Of a stretch of 23,044 nt of DNA, positions 3,771-19,235 are shown one piece after another. A model generated the notes under the pieces. It was not told the origin of the DNA. It made no database searches and saw only the letters and a list, made by a program, of their open reading frames with translations. Within the stretch, counting starts at the first letter, position 1; each line of letters opens with the position of its first letter. Source of the DNA: a virus (Duplodnaviria > Heunggongvirae > Uroviricota > Caudoviricetes); IMG/VR virus record IMGVR_UViG_2778261246_000008. The stretch is one strand, 5' to 3'. Both the position numbers and the translations under genes were made by a program.

Positions 3771-6593
3771 ATGACGGCAGAGTACATCAGGGACTGGCAA
3801 CAACCGCGCCACGCAGTGGGGCGTGAAGGAACGGGGATCCCCGCTCCTGAATCCGCGCTTTCCTCCTGGCTGGATGCCTACCGGGTAGAGAACGAGCGCC
3901 GCCAGGAAATGGCTGATGCGGCCTTCTCCGCCACGCCACTGGGCAACCTGATTAATAAAAGCCTGGACGCACAGGAAAAACAGGACAAAACCATCACACT
4001 GGCAGGAGACGCCAGAAAACAGGCACGCGGCGCGGTGGATGAAGCCATGGCCTCGCTGCGCCTGCTGCCGTCCTATCTGCGCGATCCGCTTATTCGCCAC
4101 CTCTCCTTCCTGCGCAAAAAACAGGAAGCCGATCGCCGGAAAGGCAAAAAGAGCTGGCAGGCGGAACGCTATGCACGCGGAACCCTGCGCAAAATATTCG
4201 AACGTCTGGATCGCACTGACGGACACTGGCTGACACCGGGTTATCGCTCCCTTGCCGGACGCGAACGCCTGGACGATTTGCTTTACCTGCCGCAGCTCAA
4301 CAAACACCAGATACAGACGCTGGCCACCATGACGGCGGCGATGTTCAGCAGCACCTTCGAAAAACTCTGCGATGGCTTTGGCGCGACCGATGGCGAACTG
4401 ACCATGGATGTAACGCTGAAGGCGTATCAGATGCTGGCCCGCATGGCGTTACACCTGCACATCATGCCTCCACATTATGACGCACTGACAACAGATAAAG
4501 ACCGGAGGAACGAACCGGACACGGAGCTGCTGCCGGGCGCAATCCTTCGCCTGACCTGTGCGGAATGGTGGAAACGCAAACTGTGGCTGTTACGTTGCGA
4601 GTGGAGAGAAGAACAACTCCGCGCCGCCTGTCTGGTTTCCAGAAAAACATCACCCTATCTGAGCCAGGACGCGTTAAGCGAGTTTCGCGCACAGCGCGAG
4701 AAAACACGCGATTTCCTGAAAAGTTTCATGCTGGAAAACGAAGACGGGTTCACGATTGATCTCGAGACAGTGTATTACGCGGGAGTAAGTAACCCGGTTC
4801 ACCGTAAGGCAGAAATGATGGCCACCATGAAGGGGCTGGAACTTCTGGCCGAAGCCCGTGGCGACAAAGCGGTGTTTCTGACTGTCACCTGCCCGTCAAA
4901 ATACCACGCCACAACAGAGAACGGTCATCCGAATCCCAAATGGAACGGGGCCACCATGCGCGACTCCAGCGATTACCTAGTTAACACGTTTTTTGCAGCG
5001 GTCCGCAAGAAACTGAACCGCGACGGCCTGCGCTGGTATGGCATCCGCACGGTGGAGCCTCACCATGACGGCACCGTGCACTGGCATATGATGGTCTTTG
5101 CTCATCCGGAAGAAATCGACACCATTGTGTCCCACACCCGCGATATTGCCATTCAGGAAGATCGTCACGAGCTGGGTGATGATATTACCCCACGCTTTAA
5201 GGCGGAGTACGTCGACGGCTCAAAAGGCACGCCAACCAGCTACATCGCCACCTACATCGGAAAGAACCTGGACAGCCGCGCCGTGGATGGCATCGACCCG
5301 AAAACGGGCAAGCCACGCGTTGACCACGAAACAGGTAAATCAATGGCCGAGAGCGTGGAGCGCGCCATCGGCTGGGCGCGCCTTCACCGGGTCCGCCAGT
5401 TCCAGTTCTTTGGCATCCCCTCCCGTCAGGTGTGGCGTGAACTCCGCCGCCTTGCCAGCCAGATGGCACGCAACCCGGAAGGCCCGCAACGGCTGAAGGA
5501 TGACGCAATGGATGCGGTACTCGCTGCCGCTGATGCCGGATGTTTTGCCACCTACATTGAAAAACAGGGTGGCGTACTTGTTCCGCGCAAGGACTACCTG
5601 ATTCGCACAGCCTACGACCTCGCAGATGAGCTGAACGATTACGGCGAACAGAGTGTACAGATTTACGGGATCTGGTCGCCATTCATCGGGGAATCCTCCC
5701 GTGTGTGCACGCATCCGGATAACTGGAAGCTGGTAAGACGTAAACCGGAAGCGGAAGACAGCGCCCGCGAAAATGGTTTTGACCTTCAGGGCGGCCCTGC
5801 CGCCCCTTGGACTCGTGGCAATAACTGTCCCCGTGTACAGGAAACGGACAACAACGGGACAGAACAGCCGGAAGAACGGCCAGCACCGTGGCCGCAGCTC
5901 CCTGATGGCGTTGAAGTGAACGAATGGATGCGCTCACTGAAACGACACGAACGCCGGGCGCTGATGCGTTCGCTTCGTGACAAACAGGCAAAAAACAGCA
6001 GCGATGAAATGCAGAGCTGGACACAGAGCCGCAAACAGCCACGGCCTTTGCCTGATAACCACGAATTACTCGCTAAAGAATGGCGGGAGTCTGCTGAATC
6101 TCTCGGCCTGCATATCGGTGAACAACAGATGCAGCACCTGTTACGGGGCGGCAGTCTGTACGTTGACGGCAGCATCATTGCACCGCAGGGATTTGAAATT
6201 GTACGCAAACCGGATACCCGCCCGGACAGCCGAATCACGCAGCTCTGGCAGCGCCTGAGCCGTAATCATGGCGTAAGCAGCACGGAGATCCGCCATAACC
6301 CGGTCGCCAGCTATCTGGCACAGCTGGGGGCATCAGACCCTGAAGCCGCCGCACGCCTGGCATCCACACTTCAGCAGGACCAGAACACCATGAAAACACC
6401 CGTTACCGTGCTTTCTGACATGCTGCGCGCCATCCGCGACGCAGAGCACGCACAGAGAATCAGTGAAACCACTGAACGCGCCAGCCGCAAAGCAGACCTG
6501 CTGCGGGGTGGCATGACCAGTGGAAACAAAAAACAGACAGAAACGGGATTCACAAATCCCATAAATGAGCAAAAAACGTGCCGCGATATATGA
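3771..6593 (+). CDS. A: Rolling-circle replication initiator / endonuclease, P2 gpA family
   Basis: 940-aa ORF with the HUH metal-binding motif (TVHWHMMVF) and the paired catalytic tyrosines (TSYIATYIGKN) typical of P2 A-type initiators. Position after the early small genes matches P2. Confidence 0.9.
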   Translation: MTAEYIRDWQQPRHAVGREGTGIPAPESALSSWLDAYRVENERRQEMADAAFSATPLGNLINKSLDAQEKQDKTITLAGDARKQARGAVDEAMASLRLLPSYLRDPLIRHLSFLRKKQEADRRKGKKSWQAERYARGTLRKIFERLDRTDGHWLTPGYRSLAGRERLDDLLYLPQLNKHQIQTLATMTAAMFSSTFEKLCDGFGATDGELTMDVTLKAYQMLARMALHLHIMPPHYDALTTDKDRRNEPDTELLPGAILRLTCAEWWKRKLWLLRCEWREEQLRAACLVSRKTSPYLSQDALSEFRAQREKTRDFLKSFMLENEDGFTIDLETVYYAGVSNPVHRKAEMMATMKGLELLAEARGDKAVFLTVTCPSKYHATTENGHPNPKWNGATMRDSSDYLVNTFFAAVRKKLNRDGLRWYGIRTVEPHHDGTVHWHMMVFAHPEEIDTIVSHTRDIAIQEDRHELGDDITPRFKAEYVDGSKGTPTSYIATYIGKNLDSRAVDGIDPKTGKPRVDHETGKSMAESVERAIGWARLHRVRQFQFFGIPSRQVWRELRRLASQMARNPEGPQRLKDDAMDAVLAAADAGCFATYIEKQGGVLVPRKDYLIRTAYDLADELNDYGEQSVQIYGIWSPFIGESSRVCTHPDNWKLVRRKPEAEDSARENGFDLQGGPAAPWTRGNNCPRVQETDNNGTEQPEERPAPWPQLPDGVEVNEWMRSLKRHERRALMRSLRDKQAKNSSDEMQSWTQSRKQPRPLPDNHELLAKEWRESAESLGLHIGEQQMQHLLRGGSLYVDGSIIAPQGFEIVRKPDTRPDSRITQLWQRLSRNHGVSSTEIRHNPVASYLAQLGASDPEAAARLASTLQQDQNTMKTPVTVLSDMLRAIRDAEHAQRISETTERASRKADLLRGGMTSGNKKQTETGFTNPINEQKTCRDI

Positions 6594-6669: not shown

Positions 6670-7629
6670 ATGAAAATTTGTATCGACGACGGCTCCACCA
6701 ACATCAAGCTGGCATGGACTGAGAACGGCGAACGCCGCAACGCCATCAGCCCGAACAGCTTCAAGTCGGAATGGTCTGCGCCGTTCGGTGGCTCGCAGCC
6801 CGCGAACTACATGCTTGATGGCGTGCGCTATGGTTTTGATCCGGTCAGCGATCGCTTTGTCCAGACGACCGACACGCAATACCAGTACAGCGATGTGAAT
6901 GTCATTGCCATTCATCACGCGCTGGTCAAATCAGGCATCACGCCACAGGAGGTGGATGTGGTTGTCACCCTGCCATTGAGCGAGTATTTCGACACAAACG
7001 CACAGCCGGACATGGCCAACATCAGCCGCAAAAAAGCGAACGTTATGCGCCCGGTGGAGTACCAGAACGGCGAAACATTCACTATCCGTAACGTACGGGT
7101 TATGCCTGAATCCATTCCGGCTGGCTTTAAGGCACTGGCTGACATGAGTCCGTTTGAATCCCTGCTGATTGTGGATTTGGGCGGAACCACTCTGGATGTG
7201 GCAAAGGTTCAGGGGCAACTGGCAGGTATCAGCCAGGTGTTTTGCGATCCACACGTAGGCGTTTCTCTGATGGCCGATGCCGTACTGTCGGTGATGGCCA
7301 CTAACGGTATGCGCACCAGTCACCACATCGCCAATACCATTATCGAACATCGCCATAATGAAGCCTGGCTGCGCCAGCACATCCACAATGACGCGCATTA
7401 CGCCAGCCTGATGGCGATTATTCGTGAAAAGGAAGAAACACTGAAACAACGCGTGATCCGCGCGCTGGCGGGTTTTTCGGGTTACGGGCGGGTGATGGTT
7501 GTCGGTGGCGGGGCGGAGATTGTGGCACCCGCTATCCGCGAAGCCTGCGGAGTTAATGCGACTTTCATCGCGGACGGGGTGCCACAGTTTGCTCTGGTTA
7601 ATGGGCTGTACGCAATGGACAAGGAGTAA
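6670..7629 (+). CDS. parM: Actin-like ATPase of the ParM/StbA family
   Basis: The N-terminus MKICIDDGSTNIKL, plus SPNSFK, YSDVNVIAIHHAL, VMPESIPAG, LLIVDLGGTTLD and VVGGGAE, line up with the phosphate-1, connect and adenosine motifs of plasmid R1 ParM as recalled. AAGGA Shine-Dalgarno upstream. Confidence 0.85.
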   Translation: MKICIDDGSTNIKLAWTENGERRNAISPNSFKSEWSAPFGGSQPANYMLDGVRYGFDPVSDRFVQTTDTQYQYSDVNVIAIHHALVKSGITPQEVDVVVTLPLSEYFDTNAQPDMANISRKKANVMRPVEYQNGETFTIRNVRVMPESIPAGFKALADMSPFESLLIVDLGGTTLDVAKVQGQLAGISQVFCDPHVGVSLMADAVLSVMATNGMRTSHHIANTIIEHRHNEAWLRQHIHNDAHYASLMAIIREKEETLKQRVIRALAGFSGYGRVMVVGGGAEIVAPAIREACGVNATFIADGVPQFALVNGLYAMDKE

Positions 7630-7633
7630 ACCA

Positions 7634-7945
7634 ATGACGACACCAACCAGACGGATAAGTTTCTATCTGAAGCCCGCCGCCGTCAAGAACGAAGGTGAAG
7701 CATGCGCCTGGCTGGACAGCCTTACACCAGAAGCGCGCAAAAGCGGCCAACGCGTGGCTTTTCTGGCCGGGCTGGCACTTCTGAAAATGAATCCGGCAGA
7801 GGCTTACCGACTGGCTGCATGGGCTGATGATGAAGCGTTATCAGTGACACAAACCAGGACAGAACGCCCCGCGTCACAGCCAGTATCAACCGCACAGATA
7901 ACCAGTCAGATGGCTGGAAATATCCGGGCGTTATTTCCCGAATAA
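7634..7945 (+). CDS. parR: ParR/StbB-like adaptor, probable ribbon-helix-helix DNA-binding protein
   Basis: Immediately downstream of parM with an AAGGAG Shine-Dalgarno. RISFYLKPAAV...AFLAGLALL...IRALFPE parallels the R1 ParR pattern from memory. Size (103 aa) and position fit the family. Confidence 0.6.
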   Translation: MTTPTRRISFYLKPAAVKNEGEACAWLDSLTPEARKSGQRVAFLAGLALLKMNPAEAYRLAAWADDEALSVTQTRTERPASQPVSTAQITSQMAGNIRALFPE

Positions 7946-8008: not shown

Positions 8009-8344
8009 ATGCAACGCATTGACAGAGAAAAAGCGCAGCGACTGATTGAGCGGATGGAAGCGCTGGCGAAAGAAGAAAATGTCAACATCCAAAAAATAGC
8101 TGAATGTGGCCAGATAGTTCTTCGTCGTGAAAAAGACCTCAAACAACTGATGTCTGGCGAAACCAGCAAAACATGGACTTCAGGTGAGGAGACGATTTAT
8201 TGCAGCTTCTGCAATAAATCCCAGTACGAAGTCACAAAGGTGATTGCCGGACCGTCTGTTTACATCTGCAATGAGTGCGTTGATTTGTGCAATGAAGTTA
8301 TCAGGAGAGAAGTGACAGACCATGAAGAAAAAACGCATGAATGA
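8009..8344 (+). CDS. Stand-alone ClpX zinc-binding-domain-like protein (C4 zinc ribbon) with an unrelated N-terminal helical extension
   Basis: The C-terminal segment [40 protein letters not shown] is near-colinear with the N-terminal zinc-binding domain of bacterial ClpX (CSFC...CxxC), but there is no AAA+ module. AGGGGGA Shine-Dalgarno. Confidence 0.8.
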
Positions 8345-8510
8345 CGAATTTGACGGCTTTTAATTTTATCGGGGCGCACTGTCGCCCTGCATGGAGAAAA
8401 ACAATAAAAAAGATGAATAACTGCTCATGTCAGACGCGCTGCGGGCAAGTCTGGCACCCTGCCCTGTCTCCGCAAAGGCTGTTGTCTTAACACGACAGAG
8501 TATGCCAGCA

Positions 8511-8918
8511 TTAAATATAATCTTCTTCGTAGTCGCTGATTAATTCATTGCCATAATCAGACAGCAATTTCAAAGCAAAGGTAACTTCCTCAAGGGTAGC
8601 TATCCCCATTGCTGAAAACACCGTTAATTTAACCAGCAGCAGGGAGTTTGAAAGTTCGGAAGAGTTCATCATTAAAAATATTGATGCAGCCTGAAAAGCT
8701 GTGCGTTTATTCCCATCATGAAAGGCATGAGCCTTGGCTATACCAATCAAATACATAGCAGCCAGAGCATGAATATCATCAACCCCTTCATAGTAGTGTA
8801 GTGTCCTGACGCGATTTAAAGCACCTTCAAGTAGCCCGTCATTGGCATTTCCGCTCTGGGGTAAAGTTTCAGCATGGATACGTTCTACTTGTTCTTTTGA
8901 CAAAAACACTATGTCCAT
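8511..8918 (-). CDS. doc: Doc-family toxin (Fic/Doc fold)
   Basis: Contains the Fic/Doc motif HAFHDGNKRTA. Its start overlaps the stop of the upstream antitoxin gene as ATGA on the minus strand. AT-rich relative to the phage backbone. Confidence 0.85.
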   Translation of the reverse strand: MDIVFLSKEQVERIHAETLPQSGNANDGLLEGALNRVRTLHYYEGVDDIHALAAMYLIGIAKAHAFHDGNKRTAFQAASIFLMMNSSELSNSLLLVKLTVFSAMGIATLEEVTFALKLLSDYGNELISDYEEDYI

Positions 8919-9274
8919 CAGTTATCCTCAAGCTTTTTAATGATATCCGCATGTTTTTCTCTTGTACGCTTCATTGCATCTTCAAAAGACAATCCTTTTT
9001 TTCTCTGTGCGACAAGAGCTGGATGACGTTTTTCCAGATCTCTCACTGCATTTATTAAGAGTGGTTGCTTCATTTTGTTTATTTGATCCCGCAGTTTTTT
9101 GGTTTTGCCAAGGACAGCCCGTATTTCAGGACTAAGATCAGAACCAGCAAGAACAACATCCTTCCCTCCCTGCGCCGTGATAACGACACTGCCACCGGAA
9201 GAAAGGTAATCCAGAATTTCACTCAGGTTCTCACGAAATTCATCATCAGTTACAGTTTTCATATTCATTTCCAT
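8918..9274 (-). CDS. phd: Phd/YefM-family antitoxin
   Basis: Small acidic protein immediately upstream of doc and translationally coupled to it. The N-terminus (KTVTDDEFRENLSEILDYL) fits the Phd/YefM pattern. The true start may be one of the internal ATGs (MEMNMK). Confidence 0.7.
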   Translation of the reverse strand: MEMNMKTVTDDEFRENLSEILDYLSSGGSVVITAQGGKDVVLAGSDLSPEIRAVLGKTKKLRDQINKMKQPLLINAVRDLEKRHPALVAQRKKGLSFEDAMKRTREKHADIIKKLEDN

Positions 9275-9348
9275 TATGCACGCCCATAACGTAAGTATAA
9301 CGGCTTGTTGGGCAGTAATAACACCGCCATATTTTCATTTTATACACC

Positions 9349-9374
9349 GCACAATAGTGCACAAATTTGCACAA
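9349..9374. repeat. Three GCACAA hexamers phased at 10 bp (9349, 9359, 9369), with a fourth at 9441
   Basis: Read directly in the sequence: ccGCACAAtagtGCACAAatttGCACAAttttt. One-helical-turn phasing suggests a protein-binding array, either a phd-doc operator or a terminase/cos accessory site. Confidence 0.4.
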
Positions 9375-9417
9375 TTTTTTTGAACAACTTTTTACCCTTC
9401 CGGCCCGCGTGGCGACT

Positions 9418-9520
9418 GGATCCGTCAAGGATCCGTGCGTGCACAAAAAAACGCGTTTTTTCTGCGCGCAGGTGACGGGGGAACAGCCCGCGTTTCAGGG
9501 GGTAAATAGCATCCCCTGAA
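9418..9520. other. Probable cos (cohesive end) region of the prophage
   Basis: Non-coding stretch between the cargo island and the portal gene Q, where cos lies in P2-like phages. GGTGACGGGGGAACAGCCC (9471-9489) matches the P2 19-nt cohesive end as I recall it (GGCGAGGCGGGGAAAGCAC) at about 13/19 positions. Flanked by a GGATCCGT direct repeat (9418-9425, 9429-9436), the perfect palindrome AAAAAACGCGTTTTTT (9446-9461) and the inverted repeat CAGGGG-N11-CCCCTG (9496-9518). Confidence 0.4.
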
Positions 9521-9748
9521 CGATGTCGCAGCGACACAACAGAATGGCTGTATTTCTCACGCTGAGCATGAAAAAGACGTGAGGACTTTTGATTTGATGG
9601 GGTAGCAGATAAGGCCGTCAAAATCGCACTGAGGCGGCGAGAACATGCAGTCAGCGCAGTGGGATTGCGTAAGAGCCTGACCGTCGATGATGGCGATAAG
9701 CTGGAAGACGTCGTGAAATTATCTGATTGATACAGGAGTTGGAGAGTC

Positions 9749-9771
9749 GGGGCATAAATTTTTTATGCCCC
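9749..9771. other. Perfect 10-bp-stem palindrome GGGGCATAAA-ttt-TTTATGCCCC just downstream of the Q stop
   Basis: Read directly. There is no flanking U-tract on either strand, so it is not a canonical intrinsic terminator; it could be a bidirectional terminator variant or a protein-binding site. Confidence 0.3.
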
Positions 9772-9798
9772 GGCGAAGCAGCAGACAAGCGAAGCGCG

Positions 9799-10845
9799 TC
9801 AGGATGTGGGCTGGGTGTCCAGCAGTGCGTAAGGGTTAAATCGGATCACCTCTTCGCCAAGCCAGTCATTGATATGCTTCATGGCCTCCATGACGGGCAT
9901 CAGCTCGTTAATTGCGTAAACCCGCGCGGCCTTCTCCACATCACCAAACGCACTTTTTTCGCCCGGCATCGCCCCCATCAGTTGCGGCGGAACGCGGTGC
10001 GCAGCCAGCACATCATCACGGGATGCCGCCTTAACATTCATGAACTCATCCTTTGCGGTGATCTGCTGGAACGGCAAAATTTGCACCCCCTCTTTGCCAC
10101 CGTTGGGGGCATGAATGAGCACGTTTTTAAACGCACCACCACCACGTGCACCCTGTAGCGTTTCTTTCAGGGAGTCCATGCTTTCGCGGTTTACCTGCGC
10201 TGCACCGATGTAGATGATGCACCCGGCGTGGGATCCGTTGTCGTAATACAGTTTTCTGAACATGTCCGCCGAATGAGACAGGCTGGCCGAGAGTAATGCG
10301 CCAAGATATTCCGGCATGCCGTAGATTTCCTGGTTAATGTCAGGATTCATCAGGTGGCACACTTTACCAGGGCGAAACTGAAACGCATCCTTGCCATCCT
10401 GCACATACCACCATGATTCAAGATCGCTTCCGCGTCGCATGTATTTCGCCAGGGCGTGCCGTAATTTAAGCGGTTCGCCGAGCATATTGCTTCGAAGCTC
10501 AAGGAATGCGTTACCGAACACAAACCAGTCCAGCGCCAGCGCCGAGAAATCCTGCCGGGAAAGCAGCGGGTGCGGAATATAGCAGCCGAGCAATACATTG
10601 CGCTTAAAGTAAAGCGCAGACTGATGCCAGGACGTTTGCCGGGCAGCTCTTGCCAGACCGTACCAGTCTACCGGGGTTTCATACCACCGCCCGTTATCAG
10701 CACAGTACATATTGTCCAGCAAATCATGCCCGGTCAGGCGATAAGGACCATCAAAAGTGAATGCACTGAGCGACGATTCTTTCCTGAGTGCATCAGCGAG
10801 ATCAATGCGTGAACTCATGCGCACTTTTTTATTTTTTCTGCTCAT
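9799..10845 (-). CDS. Q: Portal protein (P2 gpQ family)
   Basis: 348-aa ORF adjacent to the putative cos and directly downstream of the large terminase gene, with a 1-nt ATGA overlap. Order and size match P2 Q. Confidence 0.88.
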   Translation of the reverse strand: MSRKNKKVRMSSRIDLADALRKESSLSAFTFDGPYRLTGHDLLDNMYCADNGRWYETPVDWYGLARAARQTSWHQSALYFKRNVLLGCYIPHPLLSRQDFSALALDWFVFGNAFLELRSNMLGEPLKLRHALAKYMRRGSDLESWWYVQDGKDAFQFRPGKVCHLMNPDINQEIYGMPEYLGALLSASLSHSADMFRKLYYDNGSHAGCIIYIGAAQVNRESMDSLKETLQGARGGGAFKNVLIHAPNGGKEGVQILPFQQITAKDEFMNVKAASRDDVLAAHRVPPQLMGAMPGEKSAFGDVEKAARVYAINELMPVMEAMKHINDWLGEEVIRFNPYALLDTQPTS

Positions 10846-12596
10846 CAGAACTCCATAACCGTGAAACGCTCGTTTTCTCCTTCGCCGCCAATTGGTTCGT
10901 TAATGACAGCAAGCATGGTTGCCCACGCAAGGTCGCCGTGGCTGATCCCCCTCGCGCGGTCCGTTTCGTAAGTGATAAAGCCGCCCGGTGTTTTCACCTT
11001 ACGCACGGCGTTAAAGGCCGCGACCAGCTCGCGTTCGGCGCGATCGTATTCCCACCGCCCGGCACGCATTATTTGCAGCATTTTCAGTACCAGCGACCGT
11101 TTTGATGACAGCGTGAAGGTGTACGGAATAGCGGCAGGGAAAAACCGTTTCACTATCTGATAAACAGCCTCCCCGTTCCCGCCCGTCACATCAATGCCGA
11201 TGTGTTCCACGTTGTAGCGATACGTGAAATCTTCAATGACTCTGGCCTGTTCTTCAAACTCCAGCCCCTGAACGCGTCGCGTCTCCACCGTTCGAAAACG
11301 GCCACCAGGAACAGCCGGAGGAACCACCACGGACACAGCGCCGCTGTCGCCGTTGCCACTGCTGCCGTTTGCGTCATACCCAATCCATACCGGACGATTC
11401 CCCATCGGGCGGGGAGCAAAAGGTTTCCAGTCTTTCCAGTCGTCGTATCCGTCAACACCGCAGCCAATCAGGATATTCAGGTTAAATGCCGATTCCCCTT
11501 CGCGGACAAACTCACACATATAGAGATTGAGGAACTCGTCTTCGGTGTATTCATCACGAATTTCGTCGATATCGGTGTGTTTCCAGCCGTGATTAACCAC
11601 ATCTTCCAGCGTGACAATTTGCCGCCACATCCGGTCAGGGCAGATAAGCCCGTTATGCAGCGTTTTCCAGTCCACAGAAAAACGCTGGCGTTTATGCGTG
11701 GCCTTTTTCTCGTTCCAGCGGTCGCCGTTCCAGTAGGCGTATGCTTCGTGCGTTTCGGTGGATGGCGTGGAGAAGTAGGTGCGCCGCAGTCCGCTGAGGG
11801 TTGCCATAGCGCCAGCCACCTTGCGCAGTTCAGCAAAGCGACTGACCCAGAAAAATTCATCAAAATAAAAATTGCCCGTATAGGACTGCGCCGACGCAGC
11901 AGAAGTGCCGAGAAAATGCAGCTCTGCGCCGTTGGAGAGGATGATTTTATCGCCCCCTTTCAGCTCCACATCAACTTCAGCCGCAGCCTTCTGAATAATG
12001 CTTTTAAACTGGAACGCCTGACGACGCGACGCAGACAAAAAAATCTGGTTACGCTGGTAAGGTTGCGCCACATCGTCACGCAGCGCCATCAGCAGTGCTT
12101 CCTGTGCAAAATACCAGGTCGCCCCAATCTGTCGGGATTTCAGGATCATCCTGTTACGTATCCCGGCTTCCCTGCAAAGGGTCAGGGAGTCAAACCAGCC
12201 CCGCTGATGCCACTCCAGCCTGCTGATGATTTTTTCCCGCAGTGCGGCAATCTGTTCCGGCGTGAAATGATTTTTGAGTTTTTTCGCCCGGCCTTTCTTC
12301 CCTGTGGCCGTCGCATCCGGCTGGCCATCATGCAGTTTTTTAAGCTGCCGGGTCAGCAGGTCTATTTCCTTGAAGTCACCACCTGTTTTATTCTGTTTTT
12401 CAGTGAGCTGGATGAGGCGCGCATCGATGGACTGCGTGACACGCTGCACGGGTGGCGTTTCATCCCACTGGTCGCGTTTTTTCCACGCATAAATCGTGTT
12501 CGGGTTTATTCCCATCAGACGTGATATTTCTGCGGGCGGATAACCCTGCCAGTAAAGTTGTCGCGCACGCTGGCGCACAAAAGCGTCCTGAATCAT
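10845..12596 (-). CDS. P: Terminase large (ATPase) subunit (P2 gpP family)
   Basis: 583-aa ORF divergent from the O-N-M capsid operon, with a GGGGGAG Shine-Dalgarno. Position and size match P2 P. Confidence 0.9.
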   Translation of the reverse strand: MIQDAFVRQRARQLYWQGYPPAEISRLMGINPNTIYAWKKRDQWDETPPVQRVTQSIDARLIQLTEKQNKTGGDFKEIDLLTRQLKKLHDGQPDATATGKKGRAKKLKNHFTPEQIAALREKIISRLEWHQRGWFDSLTLCREAGIRNRMILKSRQIGATWYFAQEALLMALRDDVAQPYQRNQIFLSASRRQAFQFKSIIQKAAAEVDVELKGGDKIILSNGAELHFLGTSAASAQSYTGNFYFDEFFWVSRFAELRKVAGAMATLSGLRRTYFSTPSTETHEAYAYWNGDRWNEKKATHKRQRFSVDWKTLHNGLICPDRMWRQIVTLEDVVNHGWKHTDIDEIRDEYTEDEFLNLYMCEFVREGESAFNLNILIGCGVDGYDDWKDWKPFAPRPMGNRPVWIGYDANGSSGNGDSGAVSVVVPPAVPGGRFRTVETRRVQGLEFEEQARVIEDFTYRYNVEHIGIDVTGGNGEAVYQIVKRFFPAAIPYTFTLSSKRSLVLKMLQIMRAGRWEYDRAERELVAAFNAVRKVKTPGGFITYETDRARGISHGDLAWATMLAVINEPIGGEGENERFTVMEF

Positions 12597-18657: not shown

Positions 18658-19235
18658 GCGCAGAACTCATGCGACTGCTGAGCAACATCATCCGTACCGG
18701 GATCATCTCTGAAGTTGATGAGGAATCCTGGTGCGTGCGCGTTCGCAGCGGCGAACTGGAAACAGGCTGGCTGCGCTGGAACACCACGCGCGCGGGAGCC
18801 TTCAATGTGTGGCTGCCGCCATCACCCGGCGAACAGGTGGTAATTGCCTGCATTGGCGGCAACCCGGAAACCGCCATGATAATTGGCAGCCTGTGGAGTG
18901 ATGCCATTCCGGCCCCCGGCAAAAGCCTGAAAGAAATCGTGGTCAGCGCGCCGGATGGCACGGTGTTCCGCTACGACGCGGACGCAGGCGCACTGAGCGC
19001 CAGCGGCATGAAAACAGCCACCCTGCAGGCATCCGTCAGCGTGACACTGGATACGCCCGTCGTGGAATGCACAGACCTTCTGAGAACGGCGACGCTTGAC
19101 GTCACAAAAGGGGGAAAGATGAGCGGCAATATCACGCACAGCGGCGGCAATTTCACCTCAAACGGCATCACAGTGCATACGCATAAACACGGTGGCGTTA
19201 AAGGTGGCAGCGATTCGACAGGAGGCCCGCAGTGA
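18654..19235 (+). CDS. V: Baseplate spike/hub protein (P2 gpV family)
   Basis: GTG start with a GGAGG Shine-Dalgarno; 193-aa Gly/Ser/Thr-rich C-terminus; order S-V-W-J-I-H. Confidence 0.82.
   Translation: MSAELMRLLSNIIRTGIISEVDEESWCVRVRSGELETGWLRWNTTRAGAFNVWLPPSPGEQVVIACIGGNPETAMIIGSLWSDAIPAPGKSLKEIVVSAPDGTVFRYDADAGALSASGMKTATLQASVSVTLDTPVVECTDLLRTATLDVTKGGKMSGNITHSGGNFTSNGITVHTHKHGGVKGGSDSTGGPQ

What the first reader, a model, noticed from the sequence alone, without database searches (positions are those of the whole stretch)
8511..9274. phd-doc type II toxin-antitoxin pair as prophage cargo
This is a canonical translationally coupled antitoxin-toxin pair (Fic/Doc motif HAFHDGNKRTA) on the opposite strand to all neighbouring phage genes, in low-GC DNA. 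In P1 it acts as an addiction module; in an integrated prophage it may stabilise the lysogen or act in abortive infection.
Basis: partly seen in the sequence, partly recalled or inferred. Interest (0 to 1): 0.5.

Follow-up and report, generated by a model that had tools for sequence, protein, structure and literature searches.

The report
Phd–Doc toxin–antitoxin cassette in prophage
This is an intact but ordinary Phd–Doc-type toxin–antitoxin gene pair carried as an 861-base add-on in the known variable "cargo" region of a P2-family prophage of E. coli; it is already annotated and catalogued, though never tested.

Summary
The two overlapping minus-strand genes exist as described. Doc (8511-8918, 135 aa) passes the curated Pfam Fic and NCBIfam DOC_P1 cut-offs. 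It aligns without gaps to P1 Doc and keeps the Doc-type motif HAFHDGNKRTA, including the lysine that makes Doc a kinase. The antitoxin most likely starts at 9262 (114 aa). Only its first ~40 residues are Phd/YefM-like. The rest is a long helical linker plus a conserved 24-residue tail that also occurs on unrelated N-terminal domains, so it is probably the Doc-neutralising element.

The pair with ~85 bp of promoter forms an 861-bp, 41% GC cassette (8488-9348) in the gpA–gpQ hotspot of a P88-like prophage. There it replaced two other genes. It is found in 20 of 5,426 complete E. coli genomes. Orthologues sit next to the portal gene in P2-like prophages of four other genera. Both genes are under purifying selection.

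RefSeq already names both genes, and Rousset et al. 2022 list this arrangement untested. Addiction versus anti-phage defence remains open. This is a new member of a known kind, of low interest.

The parts
8488..9348 (-). Whole toxin–antitoxin cassette (promoter, antitoxin, toxin), 861 bp, 40.8% GC, inserted in place of other cargo.
   Evidence: Boundaries come from alignment to a TA-less P88-like prophage (strain ES4, L002) and from the common break at query 1397-1400 in about 1,100 E. coli genomes. GC. The cassette is at least 99.8% identical in 20 genomes.
8511..8918 (-). doc: 135-aa Doc-family toxin (Fic fold, predicted EF-Tu kinase).
   Evidence: Pfam Fic, TIGR01550 and phrog_577 matches. 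Gapless alignment to P1 Doc residues 25-121. AF2 model pLDDT 80, best PDB matches are P1 Doc with TM 0.60-0.66. pN 0.08 against pS 0.79 versus Citrobacter.
8697..8729 (-). Doc-type active-site motif HAFHDGNKRTA (residues 64-74; K71 corresponds to P1 Doc K73).
   Evidence: H, F, D, N, K and R are invariant in 12 homologues. The role of K73 is taken from PMC7180214.
8916..8929 (-). Coupling junction: Shine-Dalgarno GAGGA (8925-8929), antitoxin stop TGA (8918-8920) overlapping the doc start ATG (8916-8918).
   Evidence: Read from the sequence. The same overlap is called in orthologous loci.
8918..9262 (-). Antitoxin gene, 114 aa from the conserved third ATG. The open frame extends to 9274.
   Evidence: RefSeq WP_001561011. 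All homologues share MKTVTD at the N-terminus. Only the third ATG is conserved in the DNA alignment. pN 0.22 against pS 0.72.
9137..9262 (-). Antitoxin residues 1-42: Phd/YefM-type DNA-binding and dimerisation domain.
   Evidence: Pfam PF02604 29.2 bits, just below the 29.8 cut-off; phrog_375. The AF2 model superposes on the P1 Phd N-domain 4zlx_A, TM 0.81, rmsd 1.4 Å.
8921..8992 (-). Antitoxin residues 91-114 (LSFEDAMKRTREKHADIIKKLEDN): conserved portable tail, inferred to be the Doc-neutralising element.
   Evidence: Nearly invariant in 16 homologues. Retained when the N-domain or linker changes. Predicted to form two short helices. The analogy to 'Phd-C' comes from PMC10440598. Binding to Doc is inferred, not shown.
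9263..9348 (-). Cassette-specific upstream region with the putative promoter: -10 TATACT at 9294-9299, weak -35 TTATTA at 9316-9321, invariant GTGTTATTA at 9316-9324.
   Evidence: Conserved blocks in the alignment of E. coli, Citrobacter, Serratia and Klebsiella upstream regions. The pair scores below the threshold of the consensus promoter scan. Promoter and operator roles are inferred.
8385..8487 (+). Remnant (~70% identity) of the 5' end of the gene that occupies this position in TA-less P88-like prophages.
   Evidence: Alignment with ES4 locus L002, where a 525-nt 'hypothetical protein' gene starts here.
9349..9380 (.). Conserved phage-backbone element at the right edge of the variable region: TTGTGC repeats, read on the minus strand, forming a hairpin followed by a T-run on the plus strand.
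   Evidence: Identical in ES4 and conserved in Citrobacter, Serratia and Klebsiella P2-like prophages. Terminator-like hit on the plus strand at 9357-9372.

Best explanation
This is a self-contained, functional type II toxin–antitoxin operon of the Phd–Doc family. It is carried as accessory cargo in the cos-proximal gpA–gpQ variable region of a P88-like (P2-family) prophage integrated in the E. coli chromosome.

Shown here:
- Doc has the Fic/Doc fold and the Doc-specific HxFxDGNKR motif.
- The antitoxin has a Phd/YefM-type N-terminal domain.
- The genes overlap by one base and have an internal Shine-Dalgarno sequence.
- Both genes are under purifying selection.
- The unit is a discrete low-GC replacement cassette.

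Inferred from P1 Phd–Doc:
- Doc phosphorylates EF-Tu at Thr382 and stops translation.
- The antitoxin's conserved 24-residue C-terminal tail lies in Doc's active-site groove and neutralises it.
- The antitoxin dimer, with Doc as co-repressor, represses the promoter at 9263-9348.
- The antitoxin is degraded faster than Doc. Any interruption of its synthesis therefore frees Doc. Such interruptions include loss of the prophage or cassette, or shut-off of host expression by a superinfecting phage.

My best guess for the selected role is addictive retention of the cassette and its prophage, with abortive-infection defence a close second. The two roles are not mutually exclusive.
For: Identity:
- Doc family matches and motif.
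- Antitoxin fold.
- Coupling junction: and for orthologues.
- Purifying selection: (doc pN/pS about 0.10, antitoxin about 0.30, synonymous sites saturated).
- No FicA-type inhibitory motif [ST]xxxE[GN] in the antitoxin (read by eye from the translation).

Cargo status:
-.

Tail as neutraliser:
-.
- The precedent is that a SUMO-fused Phd-C alone neutralises a Doc (PMC10440598).

Addiction leaning:
- The pair keeps its place beside the portal gene in five genera while all other cargo differs.
- Doc is more conserved (87% and 81% identity) than the portal protein (78% and 52%).
- In strain UPEC132 a deletion removed most of parM, plus stbB and clpX-ZnF, but stopped about 20 bp from doc.
- In E. 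coli the pair sits beside a ParM/StbB partition system. A related ParMR-carrying phage genome is deposited as a 34.5-kb circular plasmid.
- P1 Phd–Doc is a demonstrated addiction module (PMC7180214).
Against: - No experiment exists for this subfamily. Toxicity, the EF-Tu target, neutralisation by the tail, autoregulation and antitoxin lability are all inferred.
- The antitoxin scores just below the curated Phd cut-offs. Its tail has no detectable sequence similarity to the P1 Phd C-terminus.
- The promoter hexamers are weak and fall below the scan threshold.
- Here the prophage is integrated next to btuC. Post-segregational killing matters less for an integrated prophage than for a plasmid prophage such as P1.
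- The locus is best known as a hotspot for anti-phage systems. That favours the defence reading.
- The UPEC132 deletion is a single anecdote.
Confidence: 0.8

Rival explanations
1. The same toxin–antitoxin pair, but selected mainly as an abortive-infection defence. A superinfecting phage shuts off host transcription or translation, or triggers proteolysis. The labile antitoxin decays, Doc blocks EF-Tu, and the infected lysogen stops making phage proteins. This protects sister cells and the resident prophage.
For: - The cassette lies in the gpA–gpQ region that Rousset 2022 and Vassallo 2022 showed to be rich in anti-phage systems such as old, tin, retrons and several new ones.
- In other genera it shares the region with HicAB, a KAP NTPase and methyltransferases.
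- There are weak PADLOC matches to the Fic-domain candidate systems PDC-S23 and PDC-M59B.
- More distant relatives are also prophage morons.
Against: - I found no paper in the searched library showing phage defence by any Phd–Doc pair.
- Rousset 2022 catalogued this arrangement but did not report testing it.
- The hotspot also holds non-defence cargo such as partition systems and cdt toxins.
- The PADLOC hits are weak domain-level matches (E about 1e-5) to much larger proteins.
Confidence: 0.35
2. Doc here is a Fic-type AMP-transferase like FicT, which targets gyrase and topoisomerase IV, or it has another target. It is not an EF-Tu kinase.
For: - Fic and Doc share a fold, and some Fic toxins form type II modules that target topoisomerases (PMC7180214).
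- Identity to P1 Doc is only about 32%.
- This clade has a conserved acidic C-terminal extension (...LLSDYGNELIxDYEEDY) that is absent from P1 Doc.
Against: - The motif carries Lys (NKR) where AMPylating Fic proteins have Gly. That single change inverts ATP binding and makes Doc a kinase.
- The protein passes the Doc-specific TIGR01550 cut-off.
- Its best structural matches are all P1 Doc, and true Fic proteins score E>0.9.
- The antitoxin has no [ST]xxxE[GN] inhibitory motif.
Confidence: 0.05
3. The pair is a decaying or inactive relic with no current activity.
For: Chromosomal and prophage toxin–antitoxin modules often decay. The cassette is rare, in 20 of 5,426 genomes.
Against: - Both ORFs are intact and at least 99.8% identical in all 20 genomes, with no pseudogene flags.
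- The catalytic motif is invariant.
- Purifying selection is strong even though synonymous sites are saturated.
- The overlap, Shine-Dalgarno sequence and upstream promoter blocks are conserved across genera.
Confidence: 0.04

Closest known systems
Phd–Doc addiction module of phage P1 (PDB 3K33, 3DD7, 3KH2, 4ZLX)
   Same: - Antitoxin-then-toxin operon carried by a temperate phage.
- Doc aligns without gaps to P1 Doc residues 25-121, with the same HxFx[DN][AG]NKR motif.
- P1 Doc is the best sequence and fold match in the PDB.
- The antitoxin N-domain superposes on the P1 Phd DNA-binding domain.
   Different: - Only about 32% identity for Doc.
- The antitoxin is 114 aa rather than 73. It has a predicted 35-residue helix and a differently sequenced C-terminal tail.
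- Doc has an extra acidic C-terminal tail.
- The host element is an integrated P2-family prophage, not a plasmid prophage.
'Phd-C' portable Doc-neutralising element (Ernits et al. 2023, PMC10440598)
   Same: A short C-terminal helical element, attached to interchangeable N-terminal domains, is what neutralises Doc. Here one conserved tail is found on Phd/YefM domains with linkers giving total lengths of 108-214 aa, on an Ead/Ea22-like domain, and on other N-termini.
   Different: Neutralisation by this tail is inferred, not tested. No sequence similarity to the P1 Phd C-terminus was detected.
Cargo of the P2-like gpA–gpQ cos-proximal hotspot (old/tin locus; Odegrip 2006; Rousset et al. 2022, PMC9122126; Vassallo et al. 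2022, PMC9519451)
   Same: - Same position between the replication gene A and the portal gene Q.
- Variable among otherwise similar prophages.
- This exact Pfam arrangement and antitoxin accession appear in Rousset's Table S5A.
   Different: Anti-phage activity has been shown for other cassettes at this locus, not for this one.

Membership tests
Doc toxin (Fic/Doc superfamily; NCBIfam TIGR01550 DOC_P1, Pfam PF02661) | Profile score above the curated family cut-offs. | tested here: met
   PF02661 44.2 bits (cut-off 24). TIGR01550 53.6 bits (cut-off 38.65).
Doc toxin (Fic/Doc superfamily; NCBIfam TIGR01550 DOC_P1, Pfam PF02661) | Doc-type active-site motif HxFx(D/N)(A/G)NKR, with Lys where AMPylating Fic proteins have Gly. 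| tested here: met
   H64-A-F-H-D-G-N-K71-R72 aligns column for column with P1 HIFNDANKR. The motif is invariant in 12 homologues. The significance of the Lys is from PMC7180214.
Doc toxin (Fic/Doc superfamily; NCBIfam TIGR01550 DOC_P1, Pfam PF02661) | All-helical Fic/Doc fold. | tested here: met
   AF2 model pLDDT 80. The top five PDB matches are all P1 Doc chains (prob 1.00, TM 0.59-0.66). The C-terminal third is modelled with low confidence.
Doc toxin (Fic/Doc superfamily; NCBIfam TIGR01550 DOC_P1, Pfam PF02661) | Toxicity through phosphorylation of EF-Tu Thr382. | not testable with these tools
   Needs expression and phosphoproteomics.
Phd/YefM antitoxin (Pfam PF02604, NCBIfam TIGR01552) | Profile score above the curated family cut-offs. 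| tested here: not met
   PF02604 29.2 bits against a 29.8 cut-off, matching only profile positions 1-39 of 74. TIGR01552 16.6 bits against 20.8. Several family members do pass PF02604.
Phd/YefM antitoxin (Pfam PF02604, NCBIfam TIGR01552) | Phd/YefM N-terminal beta-alpha-beta-beta DNA-binding fold. | tested here: met
   The model (pLDDT about 82 over residues 1-40) matches P1 Phd 4zlx_A with TM 0.81, rmsd 1.4 Å and 31% identity. All of the top 40 hits are Phd/YefM-type antitoxins, including VapB46 and RelB.
Phd/YefM antitoxin (Pfam PF02604, NCBIfam TIGR01552) | C-terminal segment that binds and neutralises the cognate toxin. | tested here: inconclusive
   The conserved, portable 24-residue tail co-varies with the Doc clade and is predicted to be helical. 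It has no sequence similarity to the P1 Phd C-terminus.
Type II toxin–antitoxin operon | Adjacent, co-directional antitoxin and toxin genes with coupled translation and their own promoter. | tested here: met
   TGATG overlap, Shine-Dalgarno GAGGA, and conserved upstream blocks. Cross-genus homology ends at the doc stop codon. Promoter activity and autoregulation were not testable.
P2-like gpA–gpQ hotspot cargo (Rousset 2022) | Located between replication gene A and portal gene Q, and variable among related prophages. | tested here: met
   gpA is at 3771-6593 and the portal gene at 9799-10845. The cassette is in 20 of about 1,100 E. coli genomes that share the flanks. The arrangement is listed in their Table S5A.
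Anti-phage defence system | Reduces infection by some phage. | not testable with these tools
   Only weak PADLOC domain-level hits. No published test was found in the searched library.

The most novel reading that the evidence does not exclude
The cassette is a true anti-phage abortive-infection system. It would be the first in which a Doc kinase that blocks EF-Tu is the effector. It would be kept at the cos-proximal edge of P2-family prophages in at least five enterobacterial genera. The unusually long, variable helical linker of the antitoxin would act as the sensor that couples phage infection to release of Doc. A further, less likely twist is that the neighbouring stand-alone ClpX zinc-finger protein tunes ClpXP turnover of the antitoxin.
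Probability: 0.25. Interest if true: 0.5.

Novelty: new member of a known kind. Interest (0 to 1): 0.2.

Why it matters
It adds an uncharacterised Doc subfamily, with a long modular antitoxin, to the cargo of a well-known prophage hotspot. If phage-challenge tests were positive, it would extend Phd–Doc from plasmid addiction to phage defence. It would also provide a compact 861-bp system for studying how a portable antitoxin tail neutralises Doc. As it stands, it confirms existing annotation and an existing catalogue entry.

Tried and rejected
- I tried to model the antitoxin–Doc complex as a linker-fused chain.
- I guessed that viral contig L028 (Doc 63% identical) was also P2-like, because it has 573-aa and 346-aa ORFs upstream. 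The 346-aa ORF is not a portal homologue. The portal-adjacent claim is therefore limited to the clade with at least 74% identity.
- I tested whether the antitoxin is related to the Ead/Ea22-like gene it displaced. It has no similarity to the ES4 protein. The profile hit to Ea22-like protein P0160 is confined to the shared C-terminal tail.
- I searched for the P2 19-nt cos sequence and found no match within 3 mismatches. 'Cos-proximal' therefore rests on Rousset 2022, not on a cos site mapped here.
- No Rfam family matched anywhere in the window.
- I found no intrinsic terminator downstream of doc in E. coli. Citrobacter and Klebsiella do have a GC hairpin with a T-run there.
- PADLOC gave only weak Fic-domain matches to the candidate systems PDC-S23, PDC-M59B and PDC-S05, which is not membership.
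- I rejected a specific link between the ClpX zinc-finger gene or ParMR and the TA pair. Both occur in TA-less P88-like prophages, and both are absent from the orthologous loci in the four other genera.

Full report
**1. What is in the sequence**

Two minus-strand ORFs occupy 8511-8918 (135 aa) and 8918-9274 (118 aa).
- The upstream gene's stop codon TGA (8918-8920) and the downstream gene's ATG (8916-8918) share one base (TGATG). A GAGGA Shine-Dalgarno sequence lies 6 nt before that ATG.
- The 135-aa product carries HAFHDGNKRTA at residues 64-74, window 8697-8729.
- GC is 40.8% for 8488-9348, against 52.6% and 53.5% on either side and 53.6% for the window.

One statement is wrong. The pair is not on the opposite strand to all its neighbours.
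- Portal (9799-10845) and large terminase (10845-12596) are on the same minus strand.
- Only the early genes to the left are on the plus strand: gpA 3771-6593, parM 6670-7629, stbB 7634-7945 and a ClpX-type zinc-finger gene 8009-8344.

**2. The toxin**

- The 135-aa protein passes the curated cut-offs of Pfam Fic (44.2 bits against 24) and of the Doc-specific NCBIfam TIGR01550 (53.6 against 38.65). It also matches PHROG 577, 'Doc-like toxin', at E=2.9e-26.
- Against PDB sequences the only significant hits are Doc proteins. The best are P1 Doc, aligned without a gap from residue 23 to 119 against P1 residues 25-121. HAFHDGNKRTA lies over HIFNDANKRTA.
- H, F, D, N, K and R of the motif are invariant in 12 homologues that reach down to 32% identity.
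- The lysine, K71 here and K73 in P1, is the substitution that inverts ATP binding. It turns a Fic AMP-transferase into the Doc kinase that phosphorylates EF-Tu Thr382 (review PMC7180214).
- An AlphaFold2 model (pLDDT 80) finds P1 Doc chains as its top five PDB matches (TM 0.59-0.66). True Fic enzymes score far behind.

**3. The antitoxin**

*Start codon.* RefSeq starts the gene at the third ATG (9262), giving 114 aa.
- All 16 homologues share MKTVTD from that point.
- In a DNA alignment across four genera only that ATG is conserved.

*It is not a canonical Phd.*
- Pfam PhdYeFM_antitox scores 29.2 bits, just under the 29.8 cut-off, and covers only the first 39 of 74 profile positions. TIGR01552 is also below its cut-off.
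- PDB sequence search gives nothing significant.
- The AlphaFold2 model (pLDDT 72 overall, about 82 in the first 40 residues) has a strand-helix-helix-strand-strand N-terminal domain. This domain superposes on the P1 Phd DNA-binding domain (4zlx_A, TM 0.81, rmsd 1.4 Å, 31% identity). All of the top 40 PDB hits are Phd/YefM-type antitoxins, including VapB46 and RelB.
- After the N-terminal domain come a predicted 35-residue helix (45-79), a short helix (81-87), and two short helices (93-103 and 105-113).

*The C-terminal tail.*
- The last 24 residues, LSFEDAMKRTREKHADIIKKLEDN, are nearly invariant in the family, while the middle of the protein varies.
- An exhaustive profile search of 1.84 billion representative proteins found only 61 relatives at E≤1e-3.
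- Among these, the same tail is attached to several kinds of N-terminus:
  - Phd/YefM domains, through linkers that give total lengths of 108 to 214 aa;
  - an Ead/Ea22-like domain (P0160);
  - N-termini with no Pfam match (P0116), or none apparent from the sequence (P0158, not scanned).
- This is the behaviour described for 'Phd-C', the portable element that alone neutralises a Doc toxin (PMC10440598).
- I infer that the tail is the Doc-binding element. I could not model the complex.

**4. Where it sits**

*The host element.*
- The window is 100% identical over 8300-9700 to the chromosomes of E. coli strains C7 and C3 and two pig isolates. In C7 the prophage lies next to btuC.
- The gene order is that of a P2-family phage: integrase, repressor, early operon, gpA, cargo, portal, terminase, scaffold, capsid, small terminase.
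- The non-coding flank matches phage P88 and its relatives (Xuanwuvirus) at 90-94%.

*Frequency and boundaries.*
- About 1,100 of 5,426 complete E. coli genomes carry the same flanks. Only 20 carry the cassette.
- Alignment to a TA-less relative (strain ES4) fixes the cassette at 8488-9348.
- On the right, homology resumes at 9349, the same break seen in about 1,100 genomes.
- On the left, 8385-8487 is a ~70% identical remnant of the 5' end of the gene found there in ES4. In ES4 a 'hypothetical' gene and an Ead/Ea22-like gene fill the slot.
- So the cassette replaced earlier cargo.
- Across genera, homology starts about 85 bp upstream of the antitoxin and stops at the doc stop codon. The unit is therefore a minimal promoter-antitoxin-toxin module.

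*The hotspot is already described.*
- This slot is the gpA–gpQ cos-proximal hotspot that holds old and tin in P2 (Rousset et al. 2022; Vassallo et al. 2022).
- They did not report testing this arrangement.

**5. Relatives elsewhere**

- The cassette is absent from 50,697 deposited phage genomes. The best match there is a Salmonella record at 36% identity, and P1-like Doc matches at 32-35%.
- It is also absent from 72,556 plasmids, where the best is an Arsenophonus plasmid at 56%.
- It does occur in IMG/VR prophage-derived contigs.
- Doc orthologues at 74-87% identity were traced in Citrobacter, Serratia, Klebsiella and Hafnia. Each has an overlapping upstream antitoxin gene carrying the conserved C-terminal tail. 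The Citrobacter, Serratia and Klebsiella antitoxins are full-length homologues. The Hafnia one aligns only over the tail and appears to have a different N-terminal region.
- In every case the pair lies directly beside the portal gene of a P2-like prophage, in the same orientation. The rest of the slot differs: methyltransferase and DUF7415, HicAB, or a KAP NTPase.
- Doc is better conserved than the portal protein: 87% and 81% against 78% and 52% for Citrobacter and Serratia.
- More distant relatives are found in other settings. A 58% relative is a moron in a Klebsiella siphovirus-like prophage. A 63% relative is chromosomal in Sodalis.
- Synonymous sites between genera are saturated (pS 0.66-0.84). 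Non-synonymous change is low: pN 0.08-0.12 for doc and 0.22-0.27 for the antitoxin. Both genes have therefore been kept functional, the toxin more tightly than the antitoxin.

**6. How it most likely works**

The shown steps are listed above. The remaining steps follow from P1 Phd–Doc.
- Doc phosphorylates EF-Tu and arrests translation.
- The antitoxin tail blocks Doc's active site.
- The complex represses the promoter. I place the promoter at -10 TATACT (9294-9299) with a weak -35. It sits in conserved blocks that include an invariant GTGTTATTA, but it falls below the threshold of the consensus scan.
- The antitoxin is the more labile partner. In P1 it is degraded by ClpXP; this point is from my own knowledge and was not checked here.

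*Biological role.* I lean slightly to addictive retention of the cassette and prophage, for these reasons:
- The pair persists at the same edge of the slot while its neighbours turn over.
- A deletion in strain UPEC132 removed most of parM, plus stbB and clpX-ZnF, and stopped about 20 bp short of doc.
- In E. coli the pair sits beside a ParM/StbB partition system.
- A related ParMR-carrying phage genome is deposited as a circular 34.5-kb plasmid.
- Rousset et al. also suggest that such prophages may be maintained as plasmids.

Abortive-infection defence is nearly as likely, given the hotspot. I found no paper in the searched library testing Phd–Doc in phage defence or in P2-like phages.

**7. 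Verdict**

- The finding is real, correctly identified and correctly called cargo.
- It is also already annotated by RefSeq and already listed in a published hotspot catalogue.
- New here: the exact cassette boundaries and the displaced-gene remnant; the non-canonical long antitoxin with a portable tail; the conserved portal-adjacent position in five genera; and the evidence of purifying selection.
- These points make it an uncharacterised member of a known family, not a new kind of system. Interest is low.

Noticed in passing
window 6670-7945 (+): A ParM (StbA_N/ParM, E=4e-82) plus StbB/ParR-like (Plasmid_stab_B) partition pair sits inside the P2-like prophage, between gpA and the TA cassette. 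A related ParMR-carrying P88-like phage genome is deposited as a 34.5-kb circular 'plasmid' (NZ_CP148288.1, L019). Rousset 2022 already note that about a quarter of P2-like phages carry such a system.
   Followed up: partly
window 8009-8344 (+): A 111-aa protein whose residues 64-99 are a ClpX-type C4 zinc finger (E=3e-17) with no ATPase domain; phrog_6797, function unknown. It lies next to an antitoxin whose P1 counterpart is a ClpXP substrate. However, it also occurs in TA-less P88-like prophages and is absent from the orthologous TA loci in other genera, so no specific link is supported.
   Followed up: partly
window 8385-8487 (+), including ORF 8427-8543: A ~70% identical remnant of the 5' end of the 'hypothetical protein' gene that occupies this slot in TA-less relatives such as strain ES4. 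It shows that the TA cassette replaced earlier cargo.
   Followed up: yes
window 9349-9380: Three TTGTGC repeats (read on the minus strand), forming a hairpin followed by a T-run on the plus strand, mark the right edge of the variable region. They are conserved in P2-like prophages of E. coli, Citrobacter, Serratia and Klebsiella. If this is the early-operon terminator, early plus-strand transcription would run antisense through doc and the antitoxin gene before reaching it.
   Followed up: partly
window 9748-9772: A perfect 11-bp inverted repeat (CGGGGCATAAA / TTTATGCCCCG, 3-nt loop) lies just downstream of the portal stop codon. It is identical in strain ES4. It has no flanking T-run, so it is not a canonical terminator, and its function is unknown. 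The P2 19-nt cos sequence was not found in the window.
   Followed up: no
L020 (E. coli UPEC132, NZ_CP040456.1) 4339-5275: In this strain (and, judging from the search annotation, in strain 300444) parM is truncated to 54 codons, and stbB, clpX-ZnF and the remnant are deleted. The TA cassette is intact. An extra 525-nt ORF lies between the cos region and the portal gene.
   Followed up: partly
window 18941-19030 (-): ARAGORN calls a 90-nt tRNA-Leu(CAG) inside the tail/baseplate gene region. No Rfam tRNA match reached threshold, so it is probably a false positive.
   Followed up: no
L001 11500-12547 against window 9799-10845: RefSeq flags the portal gene as frameshifted in strain C7, whereas the window has an intact 348-codon portal ORF. 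The window therefore probably comes from another of the identical-cassette strains, or the C7 assembly has an indel.
   Followed up: no
window 8514-8560 (Doc residues ~120-135): Doc proteins of this clade share a conserved acidic C-terminal extension (LLSDYGNELIxDYEEDY) that is absent from P1 Doc. It is modelled with low confidence and its role is unknown.
   Followed up: no
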